Positions 1,454 to 17,534 of a stretch of DNA of 64,000 nt are shown piece by piece. This DNA is from Rhodothermales bacterium (GTDB lineage: Bacteria; Bacteroidota; Rhodothermia; Rhodothermales; VXPQ01). The stretch lies in assembly GCA_040904565.1 (NCBI GenBank), contig JBBDTI010000031.1, positions 39,056 through 103,055 of the forward strand, written 5' to 3'. A program made the position numbers and the translations under genes. The notes under the pieces were generated by a model. That model did not search any database. It was not told the DNA's origin and saw nothing but the letters and a program-made list of their open reading frames with translations. Each line of letters starts with the position of its first letter. The first letter of the stretch is position 1.

Positions 1454-1513
1454 GGTGGAGGCGAAGTTAGTCCGCGGGCAGGTAGGAGCAGGCGTGCATC
1501 GACGCGGTCGATG

Positions 1514-1852
1514 CTAGAGTCCGAGCGAGGAGAGGTCCATTCCCGGAGGAAGCATTCCGCCCGCGGCTCCAGACATCTCCTGCTGAGCCATTTCCTGCGC
1601 TTCGTCCAATGCTTTGTTTACACCCGCGATGACCAGATCTTCCAGCAGTTCAAGGTCGTCGGGATCGATCGCGTCCGGCTCGATCTTGATGCTCGTAACG
1701 CGCTGCGCGCCATTGGCGGTCACCTTGACCATGCCGCCGCCGGCCTCTGCCGTTACCGACTTCGAGGCCAGGTTCTCCTGGACCTCGTTCATCTTCTTCT
1801 GCATCTCCATGATCTTGCCGAACATATCGGCCATATTTCCACCGTTGGACAT
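1514..1852 (-). CDS. ybaB: YbaB/EbfC nucleoid-associated protein
   Basis: AGGGMVKVTANG, LEDLVIAGVNKAL; dnaX-ybaB-recR synteny. Confidence 0.95.
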   Translation of the reverse strand: MSNGGNMADMFGKIMEMQKKMNEVQENLASKSVTAEAGGGMVKVTANGAQRVTSIKIEPDAIDPDDLELLEDLVIAGVNKALDEAQEMAQQEMSGAAGGMLPPGMDLSSLGL

Positions 1853-14699: not shown

Positions 14700-15344
14700 A
14701 TGTTCGACTTCTCGGAAGCGCCGATCACGCTGATCCTGATCCTGGTCAACGTGCTGGTCAGCGGATACGCGTTGTTCTTCGATGAGTCGCTGATCGATCG
14801 GCTGGCGTTCAAGCCGCGGGAGATCCTTCGGCAGGGGCAGTACCGGCGTTTGTTCACGGCCGGATTCGTACACGTAAGCGGATCGCACCTGCTCTTCAAC
14901 ATGATCACGCTCTATTTCTTCGGGCGTCCGATGGAGCAGTACGTGCTGGGGCCCGGCAAATTTCTGCTGCTCTACGTTGGATCGGAGCTGGCAGCACACG
15001 CCCTCTCGCTTGTCCTGCATCGGGATACGGCGGGATACGCGGCCGTAGGAGCGTCAGGCGCCATCAGCGGCGTCCTCTTCGGATACTGTCTGTTCGCCCC
15101 GCTCCAGCCGATCTACCTGTTCTTCGTGCCCATCGGCATTCCCGCGGCGCTCTTTGCCGTGGGGTACGTCTTCCTTTCGATGTACGCCATGCGGCGGGGG
15201 CGGGAAGGAGGACGCTCCATGACGGGCGGCATCGCGCATGAGGCGCACCTCGGCGGGGCGTTCGGTGGCCTGTTGCTCACGGTACTGTTAGAGCCGCGCG
15301 CCATCTCCATCTTTCTCCAGGAACTGAGTCGCATCGGGATGTAG
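14700..15344 (+). CDS. Rhomboid family intramembrane serine protease
   Basis: H....HLLFNM, catalytic GASG, AHEAHLGG; hydrophobic helices. Confidence 0.93.
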   Translation: MFDFSEAPITLILILVNVLVSGYALFFDESLIDRLAFKPREILRQGQYRRLFTAGFVHVSGSHLLFNMITLYFFGRPMEQYVLGPGKFLLLYVGSELAAHALSLVLHRDTAGYAAVGASGAISGVLFGYCLFAPLQPIYLFFVPIGIPAALFAVGYVFLSMYAMRRGREGGRSMTGGIAHEAHLGGAFGGLLLTVLLEPRAISIFLQELSRIGM

Positions 15345-15423
15345 CTCGATCTAAAACCGTTATTGCACACGGCGGTTGACCCATGTATCCAAGGGGTTAC
15401 GCGAAAAGCACCGTTATTGCCAC

Positions 15424-15452
15424 TTGCGATTAGATCGTGGCGGATCTATATT
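15424..15452 (+). promoter_or_regulatory. Putative sigma70 promoter of candidate sRNA
   Basis: TTGCGA (15424-29), 17 nt spacer, TATATT (15447-52). Confidence 0.6.
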
Positions 15453-15458
15453 AAGATC

Positions 15459-15553
15459 ACCTCATGCGCCTGGAGACCCATTCACGTGGGGACCATCAGT
15501 CGCTTCAACGTGGGCTTCAAGAAGCTCGGTCTGGTGGGCAGGCCGGGCTTTTT
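15459..15553 (+). ncRNA. Candidate ~95-nt small RNA (family unknown; ends approximate)
   Basis: Bounded by a promoter and a 12-bp hairpin + T5; internal stem CCCAT-TCAC-GTGGG. Confidence 0.5.
15522..15553 (+). terminator. Intrinsic terminator
   Basis: AAGCTCGGTCTG-GTGGG-CAGGCCGGGCTT (12 bp with two G.U) running into TTTTT. Confidence 0.7.
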
Positions 15554-15649
15554 GGTCTCCGGCCCTCGGATGCCCAGCTTGTCAACACGCCGCCGACGTC
15601 TTGTGGATATCGTGTTAGTCAATTGTGGATTAGTCGTGGCGCGATTCTC

Positions 15650-15678
15650 TTGACGTGCGCACCCTTCCACGCTATAAT
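15650..15678 (+). promoter_or_regulatory. Near-consensus sigma70 promoter of the large ncRNA candidate
   Basis: TTGACG (15650-55), exactly 17 nt, TATAAT (15673-78); the best match I noticed in the window. Confidence 0.85.
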
Positions 15679-15683
15679 AAGCC

Positions 15684-16719
15684 CAGTGCCTGACGGCACT
15701 GTTCCTTGACGCGACTGAAAACTCTGGGCTGCATGAGGATGCCCGTGCACTGATCGTAAGATCAGTCAGGAGATGCGGCAATCGAACGGCAGGCGGTGCC
15801 GGTTGGTCTGAAGGGGTTCGCCCTCGCAGGCTTTCTGGAACGGCTGCCGGTTTGGATGCATGCGTATCCATTCGCTCACAGACGCGCTGCTTCGGCAGTT
15901 AAGTGTGAGTCGGGTGGAATCGCCAAGCCTTCTCGTCGTGGACCGTGGCTTCGGCCGCCGGTCCCCTCGGTTTCGGCCTTCGGGTCGGCCGAACGGAAGC
16001 GACGGATGGTGCGCATCAGTCCCGCGCGATGCTATGAAGCGATCGGCTGAAAAGCCGTCTGCGGAGAGCGGCGTTTGTTGATGCAGTGAGCTGGAGGATG
16101 TTCGGTGGAGGCCGGACGCGTGATGAAACCGTCTGTCGAAGGACGACGGTGGAACGTGTCCCGGTCGGTGAAGCCGGTATTCGCCACGTGCTCGCCGAGA
16201 GCGGTTTGTGACGAAGCGGCCGTACCTTTGGGTGCGACGTGGATCCAACCGCTCGATGACGCGGCCAACCGCTCGCTGCGGAGAACGACGTTCGACGAAC
16301 CAGGCGGTGCCGGATCGACTCCGGAGCACGGACGCTCTATGACGCGACGGCAGCAATGCCGCCGCTGAGAGCCGACGTGTGATGAAGGAGTGGATCGGCC
16401 AGATCAGCCGGGCGTGGAGCGCGAGCGAGAAAACTGAACGTGCGGGCAATCAAAGGTCCGTGGCTGCTAAACCGTCTGCCCATGCGGTTTAGACGTATCG
16501 CTGCCGGGAAACCGACAGCCGTGCGCACGGCCACCAGTGCCGGTCTTCGTACCGGCAGGAGAGTTGGCCTCCCCACCGATGGTAGGTTGCTGTTTCGGCA
16601 GCGAACTGCATCGAGGGAGGCCGGTCGCGCTGAGGGATAATTACATGGCGCACTCCGGATGCGCCGCACGATTGCACACGATTCTCTGATGCCGCCTGCT
16701 CTCGCAGACGGCATTTTTT
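15684..16719 (+). ncRNA. Candidate large (~1,030 nt) structured non-coding RNA, family unassigned
   Basis: No credible ORF in six frames; own promoter and terminator; dense hairpins with C(UUCG)G and GNRA loops and + strand G.U pairs; long-range 5'/3' helix 15702-15716 with 16623-16637. Confidence 0.8.
16689..16719 (+). terminator. Intrinsic terminator of large ncRNA candidate
   Basis: ATGCCG-C-CTGC-TCTC-GCAG-A-CGGCAT followed by TTTTT. Confidence 0.8.
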
Positions 16720-16799
16720 ATGACAGGGCTTCCCGTTGGGCGCGGAATGGACATTCCGTTCGCATGTTTCCCTCCATCAGCCGTTAGCTGGTTTTCGGC

Positions 16800-17450
16800 A
16801 TGTCCCTCGCCGCGCGCGTCCACGTCATCGTCGTCAACTACCAGACTCCGGACCTGCTGGATACGGCCGTGCGGTCGTTCGTCGAGCACTACCCGGACGT
16901 TCCCCTGCTGATCGTCGACAACGGGTCCCGCGACGCGTCACGAGACGTCATCGAGACACTGCATGCTGACCTTGCGAACGTGTCGTCCCTCCAGTTGGAG
17001 GAAAACCGCTATCACGGGCCGGCCATGGACCTGGCCCTGCGGCACGTAGATGTCGACTACGTGTTTTTGCTGGACAGCGACACGAAGACCATGAGGGGAG
17101 GTTTCCTCGAGGAGATGCTGGCGCGATCCGAGGAGCCGAACGTATACGGTGTCGGAAAGATCGCGGAGGTAAACGAACGTGGATTTGCCGCGACACGGGG
17201 CATACCCGTGCTCGTGAGCGCCTACATGCTCATCGATCGAGAACGCTATCTCGACCTTCCGCCGTTTATTCACCACGGTCTTCCCGCCCTTCAAAACTTT
17301 CGCGCGGCGGCCGAAGCAGGATACCGACTCGAACCCTTTCCCGTAGACGAGTATATCGAGCATTTCGGACGGGGGACGGCCGAGCGGTACGGATACGGGT
17401 TGGGCTGGAAGGGGCGCCTCGATTACCTGCTCAACAAGCTGGGCTTTTAG
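16800..17450 (+). CDS. Glycosyltransferase family 2
   Basis: IVVNYQT, IVDNGSRD, DxD (LLDSD). Confidence 0.88.
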   Translation: MSLAARVHVIVVNYQTPDLLDTAVRSFVEHYPDVPLLIVDNGSRDASRDVIETLHADLANVSSLQLEENRYHGPAMDLALRHVDVDYVFLLDSDTKTMRGGFLEEMLARSEEPNVYGVGKIAEVNERGFAATRGIPVLVSAYMLIDRERYLDLPPFIHHGLPALQNFRAAAEAGYRLEPFPVDEYIEHFGRGTAERYGYGLGWKGRLDYLLNKLGF

Positions 17451-17534
17451 GCTTCGCGCGATGACGGCGCTATCGCATGGCGCTACCACATGGCACTATC
17501 GCCTTGCGCCTCTACCGATCGCCGCAGCGGAACA

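What the first reader, a model, noticed from the sequence alone, without database searches (positions are those of the whole stretch)
15650..16719. Candidate novel ~1-kb highly structured non-coding RNA with its own promoter and terminator
Seen: the only large gene-free gap in the window is a complete transcription unit, from TTGACG-17-TATAAT to a hairpin+U terminator at 16689-16719, with no protein-like ORF. Hairpins tile it: CAGTGCC-TGAC-GGCACTG 15684-701; ACTGATC-GTAA-GATCAGT 15749-66; TGGATGC/GTATCCA 15853-70; GCTGC-TTCG-GCAGT 15886-99 inside GCTCACA/TGTGAGT; GGACCGTGGC-TTCG-GCCGCCGGTCC 15940-64 and CGGCC-TTCG-GGTCG 15974-87, together closed by CGTCGT/GCGACG (multiway junction); CGGCT-GAAA-AGCCG 16044-57; ACCGTC/GACGGT 16128-50; CGGCA-GCAA-TGCCG 16348-61; CTAAACCG/CGGTTTAG 16467-92; CGG-GAAA-CCG in 16500-19; TGCCGGT/ACCGGCA 16538-57; long hairpin 16566-622; GGCGCA/TGCGCC 16647-65. 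Knowledge: C(UUCG)G and GNRA tetraloops are hallmarks of stable folded RNAs, and the G.U pairs work only on the + strand. I see no signature of 16S/23S, RNase P, tmRNA, SRP or group I/II introns. Inference: a large ncRNA in the size class of OLE/GOLLD/ROOL/MISL, either a distant member or a new class, here in a core chromosomal rather than phage context.
Basis: partly seen in the sequence, partly recalled or inferred. Interest (0 to 1): 0.93.

Follow-up and report, generated by a model that had tools for sequence, protein, structure and literature searches.

The report
New large RNA with partner sRNA
The gene-free gap holds two conserved non-coding RNA genes of Rhodothermales bacteria, a structured RNA of about 1 kb that matches no described family and a 95-nt RNA that appears to base-pair with its most conserved core, a pairing of a kind not described for large bacterial RNAs.

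Summary
Window 15650-16719 is a transcription unit with a near-consensus promoter and an intrinsic terminator. It is not coding, and its + strand folds far better than shuffles (z -5.2). It matches none of 4227 Rfam families. The RNA is single-copy, syntenic (rhomboid gene upstream) and found only in one order (Rhodothermales by record titles): 36 of 151 genomes sampled from the class, and in the phylum sample nothing outside that order. Its length varies from 469 to 1207 nt. A nearly invariant 5' ~70 nt and a conserved 3' domain flank a variable interior. Helices H1, P2, P3, P4b and P5 covary, and contigs from RNA libraries of four studies cover it.

Four of its conserved motifs are complementary to the large RNA's P4 loop, 5' core strand and P5 loop. 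Two of these intermolecular helices show compensatory changes. The two genes co-occur in 32 genomes.

My best reading is a two-RNA module in which the sRNA docks on the P4 loop and then remodels or completes the large RNA's core. The biological function is unknown.

The parts
15424..15452 (+). Promoter of the small RNA (TTGCGA-17-TATATT)
   Evidence: Pattern scan gives 9 of 12 matches. By eye, a TTGCnn-17-TATCTT-like pair stands at the same place before the sRNA in five of the relatives printed (L008, L009, L011, L013, L027).
15459..15553 (+). Small RNA (~95 nt). 5' motif ACCUCAUGC 15459-15467; CCUGGAG 15469-15475; variable hairpin 15476-15495; UCAGUCGC 15496-15503; GUGGGCU 15510-15516; intrinsic terminator 15524-15553.
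   Evidence: Model R2 matches G000 at window 15456-15553 (70.5 bits). The terminator is found by the scan. The alignment of 30 relatives is A3. An HMM hit lies upstream of the large RNA in 133 of 164 loci. The 5' end is inferred from the -10 box and was not mapped.
15601..15629 (+). Two copies of TTGTGGA (15601-15607 and 15623-15629) upstream of the large RNA's -35 box
   Evidence: Read. By eye, a TGTGGA- or TGTGAA-like word stands about 20-25 nt before the -35 box in most of the 30 relatives printed. Its role was not tested.
15650..15678 (+). Promoter of the large RNA (TTGACG-17-TATAAT)
   Evidence: Pattern scan gives 11 of 12 matches. By eye, a TTGAC-type -35 box and a TATAAT-like -10 box are visible in most of the 30 relatives printed; four have a longer H1 that shifts the register, and two or three have a weaker -35.
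15684..15701 (+). H1, the 5' hairpin (CAGUGCC-UGAC-GGCACUG)
   Evidence: The five core pairs are 98.9% paired with compensatory changes. All seven pairs are 90.5% paired in 116 sequences. It is in the fold.
15702..15715 (+). P1 5' strand (UUCCUUGACGCGAC). It pairs with 16624-16637. Bases 15711-15718 are also complementary to the sRNA motif UCAGUCGC.
   Evidence: P1 is 87.6% paired in 38 sequence pairs. The 5' strand is invariant, and the 3' strand mostly changes between G-C and G.U or between U-A and U.G. P1b is in the fold. Intermolecular helix 2 is.
15720..15725 (+). P2 5' strand (AACUCU). It pairs with 16560-16565. Bases 15722-15729 are also complementary to sRNA 15468-15475.
   Evidence: There are 7 distinct strand combinations with 32 of 35 cells paired; the two outer pairs covary (AA/UU, GU/AC, AU/AU). 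It is in the fold.
15726..15744 (+). P4 hairpin with the conserved loop UGCAUGAGGAU (15730-15740). Bases GCAUGAGG (15731-15738) are complementary to the sRNA 5' end.
   Evidence: The loop is invariant or nearly so in 38 sequences. The stem is only 65% paired.
15749..15766 (+). P4b hairpin with a GNRA loop (CUGAUC-GUAA-GAUCAG)
   Evidence: All 6 pairs show changes on both sides among 38 sequences.
15767..16439 (+). Variable interior, a run of hairpins that differs in length and content between relatives
   Evidence: Total RNA length is 469-1207 nt in 45 non-redundant relatives. In genus g8 the conserved 5' and 3' blocks lie about 180 nt apart instead of about 700. Contigs of relatives skip 103-718 nt here (table 5).
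16442..16461 (+). P5a hairpin (GCGGG...UCCGU)
   Evidence: 70% paired, with 5 of 5 pairs showing changes on both sides (helix 1).
16467..16492 (+). P5 hairpin (CUAAACCG / CGGUUUAG) with the conserved loop UCUGCCCAUG. Bases UGCCCAU (16477-16483) are complementary to the sRNA motif AUGGGCA.
   Evidence: 8 of 8 stem pairs show changes on both sides, 83-85% paired. The stem is 89.8% paired against 76.9% when shuffled, with 0 of 500 shuffles as high.
16500..16557 (+). P6 (GAAA-loop hairpin, 16500-16519) and P7 (hairpin, 16538-16557)
   Evidence: P7 is in the fold. P6 was read by eye in the folds. Hairpins are visible at the same places in relatives. Covariation was not counted.
16560..16565 (+). 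P2 3' strand (AGAGUU)
16566..16622 (+). P3 long hairpin (base GGCCUCCC / GGGAGGCC)
   Evidence: 86.2% paired against 79.0 +/- 1.2% when shuffled, with 0 of 1000 shuffles as high. Slid registers give 43-68%. Compensatory changes are G-C to A-U and C-G to U-A.
16624..16637 (+). P1 3' strand (GUCGCG-CUG-AGGGA)
   Evidence: Twelve metagenome contigs end inside this strand.
16647..16719 (+). 3' tail: hairpin 16647-16665 and the intrinsic terminator 16689-16719
   Evidence: Both are in the fold. A hairpin followed by a T-run ends the unit in all 30 relatives of the first set.

Best explanation
The gap between the rhomboid gene and the glycosyltransferase gene holds a pair of non-coding RNA genes on the same strand, each with its own promoter and terminator.

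Shown by the data:
- The large RNA (about 15685 to 16640-16719) is a real, conserved, structured RNA of a family that is not in Rfam.
- Its 5' and 3' ends close it through helices P1 and P2, which meet hairpin P3 at a junction.
- Hairpins H1, P4, P4b, P5a, P5, P6 and P7 are conserved around an interior that expands and shrinks between relatives.
- The ~95-nt sRNA upstream is conserved and co-occurs with the large RNA.
- The sRNA carries four motifs complementary to the large RNA: its 5' end to the P4 loop (helix 1a), the next 7-8 nt to the 5' strands of P2 and P4 (1b), UCAGUCGC to the P1b strand plus junction (2), and AUGGGCA to the P5 loop (3).
- Helices 1a and 2 show compensatory changes.

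Inferred:
- The sRNA first binds the exposed P4 loop with its 5' end, as a toehold.
- It then zips into the 5' core strand and displaces the large RNA's own 3' strands. The sRNA mimics their layout of strand, hairpin, strand.
- This switches the large RNA between a closed and an opened or duplexed state, which would control its activity or its turnover.
- What the large RNA does in the cell (protein scaffold, sequestering RNA or catalyst) is not known.
For: No known family:
- 0 of 4227 Rfam families matched at gathering score.
- Only a chance-level match appeared at E<=10 over 15300-16900, a stretch that includes the sRNA.

Fold:
- z is -5.18 on the + strand and -2.52 on the - strand.

Conservation:
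- DNA matches in 42 of 61 relatives.
- Model R1 matches 36 of 151 genomes sampled from the class, all in one order.
- R1 matches 4 of 151 sampled from the phylum, all in that order.
- Single copy in the genome.
- A rhomboid gene lies upstream in 57 of 70 loci.

Intramolecular covariation:
- P5.
- H1 and P4b.
- P3, with 0 of 1000 shuffles as high.
- P2.

Not coding:
- 9 of 10 indels against a 74%-identical relative are not multiples of 3.
- Mismatches fall 81/83/74 by codon position.
- The - strand frame breaks into three frames in that relative.

RNA evidence:
- Contigs from RNA libraries of four studies (520, 10, 164 and 5 contigs) lie on 15640-16673.
- 19 of 91 metagenome contigs start 0-23 nt before the P1 strand. 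12 of those 19 end inside the P1 3' strand.

The sRNA:
- Promoter and terminator are found by the scan.
- An HMM hit lies upstream of 133 of 164 loci.
- R2 matches 37 of 151 genomes. By my comparison of the two lists, 32 genomes have both RNAs, always on the same strand and 100-250 nt apart.

Pairing:
- Helix 1a: the 8 core pairs are paired in 44/45 to 59/59 of the distinct combinations. C-G to U-A double changes occur at three positions in several lineages. 9 of 1000 shuffles reach the observed value.
- Helix 2: pairs 2-9 are paired in 27-32 of 32 combinations. Pair 1 reads C-G 16 times and U-A 6 times. 1 of 1000 shuffles reach the observed value.
- Predicted duplex of the sRNA body with the 5' region: median -47.8 kcal/mol, z from -3.7 to -7.8 in 30 of 30 species.
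- Co-folding with the full-length large RNA gains -15.3 and -16.7 kcal/mol in the 2 species tried.
Against: - No read-level data show either transcript's ends or the sRNA's expression.
- Helices 1b and 3 are compatible (82% and 88% paired) but show no significant covariation: 194 and 402 of 1000 shuffles reach the observed value.
- Most paired positions are invariant on both sides, so they say nothing either way.
- Cognate pairs are only slightly more stable than non-cognate pairs (-47.8 against -45.9 kcal/mol; 21 of 30 at least as good as the median).
- Related sequences can beat shuffles without any structure.
- Helices 1b and 2 overlap P1b, P2 and P4, which also have support. So either a switch exists or only parts of the complementarity are used. 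The covarying positions of helix 2 lie in the single-stranded junction, which also fits docking without unfolding.
- Strand displacement is pure inference.
- Four genomes match R1 without R2 (two or three of these matches weak), and one has a strong R2 match without R1.
Confidence: 0.5

Rival explanations
1. Stable heterodimer. The sRNA is an integral subunit that docks on the folded large RNA through its single-stranded elements only (P4 loop, the junction after P1, P5 loop). It bridges them without opening P1, P2 or P4. The complex, perhaps with proteins, is the working particle.
For: Three of the four complementary targets include apical loops or junction bases that are free in the folded RNA. 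The covarying positions lie in the P4 loop and in the junction part of helix 2 (pair 1 C-G/U-A, pair 4 A-U/G.U/C-G). P2 and P3 covariation shows that the closed fold is under selection. The two genes almost always co-occur and are adjacent.
Against: The complementarity runs well into P1b (GCGAC) and the P2 and P4 strands (1b is 82% paired). A pure docking model does not need that. Co-folding predicts 34-42 intermolecular pairs, which includes opening of core helices. The P5-loop contact shows no significant covariation.
Confidence: 0.22
2. Sponge or decoy. The sRNA is a regulator of mRNAs that acts through its 5' seed. The abundant large RNA titrates it, or the sRNA marks the large RNA for decay, as in known pairs of an sRNA and a sponge RNA.
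For: The seed is at the extreme 5' end of the sRNA and matches an exposed loop. RNA-library contigs of the large RNA are many.
Against: A decoy does not need about 1 kb of conserved, covarying structure. The complementarity has four segments and is not seed-like. The sRNA was not found at the locus, nor by R2, in the families that lack the large RNA, apart from 4 weak matches in f30. So no independent life of the sRNA is seen. No mRNA targets were searched.
Confidence: 0.12
3. The large RNA works alone. The upstream element is an unrelated sRNA or the rhomboid gene's 3' end, and the complementarity reflects shared ancestry (an inverted partial duplication) without present function.
For: The sRNA reads like a reverse-complement copy of nt ~30-60 of the large RNA with a hairpin inserted, which a duplication could produce.
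Against: An unused duplicate would decay. Instead both sides stay nearly invariant across an order and change together at several positions in several lineages. G.U pairs are common in the intermolecular helices, which points to selection at the RNA level.
Confidence: 0.06
4. It is a divergent or expanded member of a known housekeeping RNA (such as 6S RNA), a cis-regulatory leader of the downstream glycosyltransferase, or a protein-coding gene.
For: The 6S model found nothing in G000 or G008. Its only sub-threshold matches in the class lie in genera that lack this RNA (5 of 13 genomes of g33 and 1 of 2 of f32), a weakly complementary pattern. Like 6S, the RNA is closed by pairing of its ends.
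Against: There is no Rfam match at any threshold used. The 6S-like RNAs of g33 are about 178 nt and not at this locus. The 6S model is blind in most of the class anyway (0 of 66 in f30). The unit has its own terminator, and the gene downstream is the glycosyltransferase in only 27 of 70 loci. Coding is excluded.
Confidence: 0.04

Closest known systems
OLE, ROOL and GOLLD RNAs (large ornate bacterial ncRNAs; PMC12286853, search listing and abstract only)
   Same: A size of 0.5-1.2 kb, many conserved helices with tetraloops, its own promoter, abundant RNA, unknown or poorly known function, and a narrow lineage range. For OLE I recall a membrane-protein gene next to the RNA gene; here a rhomboid membrane-protease gene is the constant neighbour.
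   Different: No sequence or structure match to any of them by Rfam models. Chromosomal and syntenic, with no match in viral contigs. No partner sRNA is described for those RNAs as far as I recall. Homo-oligomer formation was not tested here.
6S RNA with its product RNA (recalled knowledge)
   Same: An abundant RNA closed by pairing of its ends. A short RNA that pairs with an internal strand is proposed to rearrange the large RNA.
   Different: Here the short RNA has its own gene and promoter and is not copied from the large RNA. The large RNA is 3-6 times longer. No match to the 6S model.
Pairs of an sRNA and a sponge RNA in enterobacteria (recalled knowledge)
   Same: Two trans-encoded RNAs that base-pair through a seed at the sRNA 5' end. 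One may titrate or destabilise the other.
   Different: Known sponges are short or derived from mRNA or tRNA spacers, not 1-kb conserved structured RNAs. Here there are four complementary segments totalling about 30 nt, and the genes are adjacent and co-inherited.
Two-RNA particles such as tracrRNA with crRNA, or two-piece tmRNA (recalled knowledge)
   Same: Two separately made RNAs held together by conserved base pairing to form one functional unit, encoded side by side.
   Different: No CRISPR array, cas gene or tmRNA features here. tmRNA lies elsewhere in the genome.

Membership tests
Any Rfam 15 family (includes OLE, GOLLD, ROOL, HEARO, raiA and 6S variants as far as they are in the release) | A match to the family's covariance model at its gathering score | tested here: not met
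   0 matches in the 64-kb window. 0 matches in 15 homologous loci. At E<=10 over 15300-16900 only M23 matched, at 21.5 bits against a gathering score of 41.2.
RNase P RNA, tmRNA, SRP RNA | Being the genome's copy of that RNA | tested here: not met
   Full-length matches above cut-off lie on other contigs: RNase P on C13 (242 bits), tmRNA on C65 (172 bits), SRP on C66 (64 bits).
6S RNA | A match to the 6S model, meaning a ~180-nt rod with a central bubble | tested here: not met
   No match in G000 or G008, and none over this region. The length here is 469-1207 nt.
6S RNA | Binding to RNA polymerase holoenzyme and templating of a product RNA | not testable with these tools
   This needs biochemistry.
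CsrB/RsmZ-type protein sponge | A CsrA-family protein in the same genomes | tested here: not met
   PF02599 matched 4 of 151 genomes of the class. None of them is in a family that carries the RNA.
RNA built of k-turn modules bound by an L7Ae-family protein | Enrichment of the k-turn pattern (C stem, 3-nt bulge, tandem G.A) and an L7Ae-family protein | tested here: inconclusive
   Pattern hits were 10 and 9 in relatives L003 and L005, against 1.7 and 2.0 in shuffles (maximum 5). In the window's RNA there were 6 against 2.1 (maximum 6), and none to one in 9 of the 16 RNAs tested. PF01248 matched 0 of 151 genomes.
Protein-coding gene | A conserved reading frame with 3-nt periodicity of change | tested here: not met
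   No Pfam match for the 227-aa frame.
Large ornate ncRNA (descriptive class, not a homology family) | Longer than 400 nt, many conserved and covarying helices, non-coding, own transcription signals | tested here: met

The most novel reading that the evidence does not exclude
This is a natural two-RNA device. A large ornate RNA has its closing helices opened, or its core completed, by a dedicated sRNA encoded beside it. The sRNA uses an apical-loop toehold and copies the layout of the large RNA's own 3' strands. That would be a cellular strand-displacement switch, or a heterodimeric RNA particle or ribozyme, and a kind of system not described in bacteria.
Probability: 0.3. Interest if true: 0.95.

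Novelty: categorically new. Interest (0 to 1): 0.9.

Why it matters
Very few classes of large structured bacterial RNAs are known, and each has led to new biology. This one is well conserved across an order that includes cultured, non-pathogenic thermophiles. It is present in RNA libraries from several habitats and matches no described family. Its partner sRNA gives an unusually direct experimental handle. The predicted intermolecular helices can be tested with compensatory mutations, and the closed and sRNA-bound states can be probed and imaged. If the pair works as a switch or as a two-RNA particle, it adds a new mode of RNA-RNA control and a natural example of toehold strand displacement.

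Tried and rejected
Tools and alignments that gave nothing or went wrong:
- RNAalifold on the gappy MAFFT alignment A1 predicted no pairs.
- My first P3 column map was off by one for most rows, so helix 4 is wrong. I redid it.
- My P4 columns were also mis-registered (18% paired) and are not used.
I used strand folding instead.
- Regex hunts for the 3' end were noisy. I replaced them with sequence-only HMMs, which found the 3' end in only 41 sequences and P5 in 84 of 136. An HMM for the P3 5' arm found 1 hit and was dropped.

Hypotheses that did not hold:
- A pseudoknot between the P4 loop and the P5 loop. All its pairs are invariant, and one position reads C-G 44 times and C-A 28 times with no compensation. 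The sRNA explains both loops better.
- k-turn modules. These are real-looking in two relatives but not significant in the window's RNA. No L7Ae-family protein was found in 151 genomes.
- A CsrA sponge.
- 6S RNA. Sub-threshold 6S-like matches occur only in genera without this RNA, but they are not at this locus.
- Covariation of intermolecular helices 1b and 3, which was not significant.

Genomes without the RNA:
- In five such genomes the rhomboid orthologue (49-70% identity) was found.
- In the two of them I read through (G020, G060), another open frame follows within about 70-190 nt.
- Neither R1 (best 9.1 bits) nor the sRNA HMM matches there.
- One partial R1 match in L259 lies in coding-like DNA on the purQ side and is chance.

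The genome contigs pattern:
- It was too short. By the downstream motif test, 40 of its 120 loci are true homologues.

Sequencing runs:
- Ten RNA runs of six studies held 5-15% of the sampled words. The seven runs I did not lay count for nothing.
- In the four runs laid, the flanking genes (14700-15639 and 16674-17500) had next to no cover, with summed depth mostly 0-22 and 120 in one bin of X1. The RNA region had hundreds to hundreds of thousands. I therefore report this here only.
- The sRNA region had depth 3.6 in one run, which says nothing either way.

Literature:
- Eight searches found nothing on a large ncRNA or on this sRNA in Rhodothermus or Rhodothermales. One search was the general search on large ncRNAs.
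- Term searches in the main texts of PMC11109978 and PMC8632094 gave 0 occurrences of 'Rhodotherm'.
Full report
**Observation.** A pattern scan finds TTGACG-17-TATAAT at 15650-15678 with 11 of 12 matches. It found two promoter-like sites in 15300-16850 against 0.5 expected from shuffles. The unit ends in a hairpin followed by six T at 16689-16719. The + strand of 15680-16670 folds to -492.2 kcal/mol against -437.6 +/- 10.5 for dinucleotide shuffles (z -5.18, 0 of 20 as good). The - strand gives z -2.52 and is 82 kcal/mol weaker.

**Not coding, not a known RNA.** The longest open frame (227 aa, - strand) has no Pfam match. Against the closest relative (74% identity), 9 of 10 indels are not multiples of three, and mismatches fall 81/83/74 over the three codon positions. 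The 227-aa frame maps to pieces in three different frames of that relative. Rfam 15 (4227 models) gives no match at gathering score in the whole window. It gives one chance-level match (M23, E 0.33) at E<=10 over 15300-16900, and none in 15 homologous loci. RNase P RNA, tmRNA and SRP RNA lie on other contigs. The 6S model finds nothing in this genome or in a complete relative.

**Distribution.**
- The DNA matches 42 of 61 relatives and is single-copy in its own genome.
- A covariance model of the first 104 nt (R1) matches 36 of 151 genomes sampled from the class (24 of 60 genera), all in the window's order. Some families are fully positive (f1 8/8, f5 14/14). Others show none in those searched (f3 0/5, f26 0/17, and f30 of another order 0/66).
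- In a sample of the phylum, 4 of 151 match, again only in that order.
- Record titles of homologous public contigs read Rhodothermales, Rhodothermia, Rhodothermaceae, Roseithermus, Bacteroidota or 'uncultured bacterium'. The other 80 of the 120 pattern hits were chance matches in coding DNA.
- A stricter pattern found 91 metagenome contigs and no viral contig.
- The locus is syntenic: purQ-like gene, rhomboid gene, the RNAs, then often a family-2 glycosyltransferase. The rhomboid gene is upstream in 57 of 70 loci and the glycosyltransferase downstream in 27 of 70; loci are short, so misses are partly truncation.
- Five genomes without the RNA keep the rhomboid orthologue. In the two I read through, another open frame follows it within about 70-190 nt.

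**Architecture of the large RNA.**
- In 45 non-redundant relatives with both ends, the RNA is 469-1207 nt long.
- The first ~70 nt are almost invariant, with 21 invariant columns in 38 sequences.
- The 5' strand UUCCUUGACGCGAC pairs with GUCGCG-YNG-AGGRA near the 3' end (P1). It is 87.6% paired in 38 sequence pairs. The 5' strand is invariant, and the 3' strand mostly changes only between G-C and G.U or between U-A and U.G.
- P2 (NNCUCU with AGAGNN) has 7 distinct combinations with 32 of 35 cells paired, and its outer pairs covary.
- P3, the long hairpin between P2 and P1, is 86.2% paired against 79.0 +/- 1.2% when shuffled (0 of 1000 as high) and 43-68% in slid registers.
- P5 has 8 of 8 pairs with changes on both sides and is 89.8% paired against 76.9% (0 of 500 as high).
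- H1 and the GNRA hairpin P4b also covary.
- The P4 stem is weak (65% paired), but its loop is conserved.
- The interior differs in length between relatives. In two relatives it consists of repeats that fit the k-turn pattern, but this is not significant in the window's own RNA.

**RNA evidence.**
- Contigs of four RNA libraries from four studies, two labelled soil, one ice and one salt lake, lie on 15640-16673: 520, 10, 164 and 5 contigs at 80% likeness or more.
- They include pieces 89-95% alike over the variable interior, so close relatives are in those samples.
- Many contigs skip 103-718 nt of the interior, as expected from shorter relatives (table 5).
- These are contigs. They show presence in RNA libraries, not level, strand or ends.
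- Among the 91 metagenome contigs, 19 begin 0-23 nt before the P1 strand, inside H1. Of these 19, 12 end inside the P1 3' strand, 3 end 20-55 nt after it, and 4 end elsewhere.
- Contigs that equal the RNA and nothing else are what assembled transcripts would look like. I do not know the library type of those records.

**The partner sRNA.**
- Between the rhomboid stop (15344) and the large RNA's promoter lies a second unit: promoter TTGCGA-17-TATATT (15424-15452), a body of about 95 nt, and an intrinsic terminator (15528-15549 plus T-run).
- It is conserved. An HMM built from 30 distinct sequences hits upstream of 133 of 164 loci that carry the large RNA's 5' motif.
- A covariance model (R2) matches 37 of 151 genomes of the class sample.
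- Comparing the two hit lists by eye, 32 genomes have both RNAs, always on the same strand with the sRNA 100-250 nt upstream. Four have R1 only, two or three of them as weak matches. Five have R2 only: four weak matches in another order, and one strong match in a genome with 330 withheld bases.
- Rfam has no match for it.

**Complementarity.** The sRNA's four conserved motifs are each complementary to one of the most conserved elements of the large RNA.

| Helix | sRNA motif | Large RNA target | Support |
|---|---|---|---|
| 1a | 5'-terminal ACCUCAUGC | P4 loop GCAUGAGGU | In 61 distinct combinations from 133 loci, the eight core pairs are paired in 44/45 to 59/59. Three positions show C-G to U-A double changes. 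9 of 1000 shuffles reach the observed pairing. |
| 1b | GCCUGGAG | CUCUGGGC (5' strands of P2 and P4) | 82% paired; not significant, 194 of 1000. |
| 2 | (C)UCAGUCGC(G) | (C)GCGACUGA(G) (P1b strand plus junction) | Pairs 2-9 paired in 27-32 of 32 combinations. Pair 1 reads C-G 16 times and U-A 6 times. 1 of 1000 shuffles reach it. |
| 3 | AUGGGCA | P5 loop UGCCCAU | 88% paired; nearly invariant, 402 of 1000. By eye, one lineage has AUGGACA with a P5 loop reading UGUCCAU. |

The double changes in helix 1a are as follows.
- CUUCAUGC pairs with GCAUGAAG in two loci.
- AUCUCAUGC pairs with GCAUGAGA in two loci.
- CAUGU pairs with ACAUG in five combinations.
- U.G intermediates occur, and there are two mismatch exceptions.

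G.U pairs are frequent, so the selection acts on RNA of this strand. The predicted duplex of the sRNA body with the 5' region has a median of -47.8 kcal/mol, with z from -3.7 to -7.8 against 100 shuffles each, in 30 of 30 species. Co-folding with the full-length large RNA still gains -15.3 kcal/mol (this genome) and -16.7 kcal/mol (a relative).

**Mechanism.**

Shown:
- Two conserved, adjacent, co-occurring ncRNA genes.
- A covarying closed fold of the large RNA.
- Multi-site complementarity between the two RNAs, with compensatory changes in two of the four segments.

Inferred:
- The two RNAs pair in the cell.
- Segments 1b and 2 use the same bases as P4, P2 and P1b. The sRNA has the same layout (CUCU-binding strand, hairpin, CGCGAC-binding strand) as the large RNA's own 3' domain (P2 strand, P3, P1 strand).
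- The simplest reading is therefore competition. The sRNA lands on the free P4 loop and displaces the 3' strands, which switches or inactivates the large RNA or marks it for cleavage.
- The main rival is a stable heterodimer that uses only the free loops and the junction. The covarying positions fit that reading equally well.
- A sponge role is possible but explains the large conserved structure poorly.

No CsrA-family or L7Ae-family protein occurs in the genomes that carry the RNA. The protein partners and the cellular role are open.

**Comparison and novelty.** It works most like the large ornate RNAs (OLE, ROOL, GOLLD) in size and conservation. In the proposed rearrangement it resembles 6S RNA with its product RNA, or an sRNA-sponge pair. 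It is a member of none of these, since every model-based test failed. Eight literature searches and two term searches in survey papers found no description.

**Verdict.** This is a real family of large structured RNA that matches no described family, with a dedicated partner sRNA. Interest is high, and the function is unknown.

Noticed in passing
window 15601-15607 and 15623-15629: Two copies of TTGTGGA lie just upstream of the large RNA's -35 box. A similar word (TGTGGA or TGTGAA) stands at the same distance in most relatives printed. It may be a regulator site or an UP-like element.
   Followed up: no
L164 about 1501-1678 (- strand) and other genomes of genus g33: A ~178-nt RNA scores 30-41 bits on the 6S model, below the 46.4-bit cut-off. 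It appears in 5 of 13 genomes of a genus that lacks the large RNA, plus one genome of a second family (1 of 2 in f32), and it is not at the rhomboid locus. 6S RNA seems undetected in the rest of the class.
   Followed up: partly
relatives L003 and L005, interior of the large RNA: Tandem modules of the form GCUC-GAU-GAAGC-hairpin-GY-GGA-GAGC fit the k-turn pattern (10 and 9 hits against about 2 in shuffles). No L7Ae-family protein was found in 151 genomes of the class.
   Followed up: partly
L002, between the sRNA terminator and the large RNA promoter: A short unit (GGTCTAATGATGGGG-like) is repeated three times in tandem in the closest relative. It is absent from the window.
   Followed up: no
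metagenome loci L179, L193, L198, L205, L209, L212, L218, L230, L247, L253, L256, L257: These contigs of 1.07-1.24 kb begin inside hairpin H1 and end inside the P1 3' strand, so they consist of the RNA alone. Some environmental relatives are therefore longer than the window's RNA.
   Followed up: partly
G111 (family f2): This genome has a strong sRNA match (71.7 bits) but no match to the large RNA's 5' model. It has 330 withheld bases, which may hide the match.
   Followed up: no
window 15459-15467: The sRNA's 5' end, and the 5' arm of P3, look like the anti-Shine-Dalgarno end of 16S rRNA. The P4 loop and the 3' arm of P3 look Shine-Dalgarno-like. This resemblance is recalled, not tested.
   Followed up: no
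window 15766-16449, - strand, and relatives: Long open frames (142-314 aa in 9 of the 11 RNAs tested, about 100 aa in one) run on the - strand of the RNA gene in every relative tested, yet their frames are not conserved. This is probably a by-product of the + strand's base composition. Gene callers may annotate them as hypothetical proteins.
   Followed up: partly
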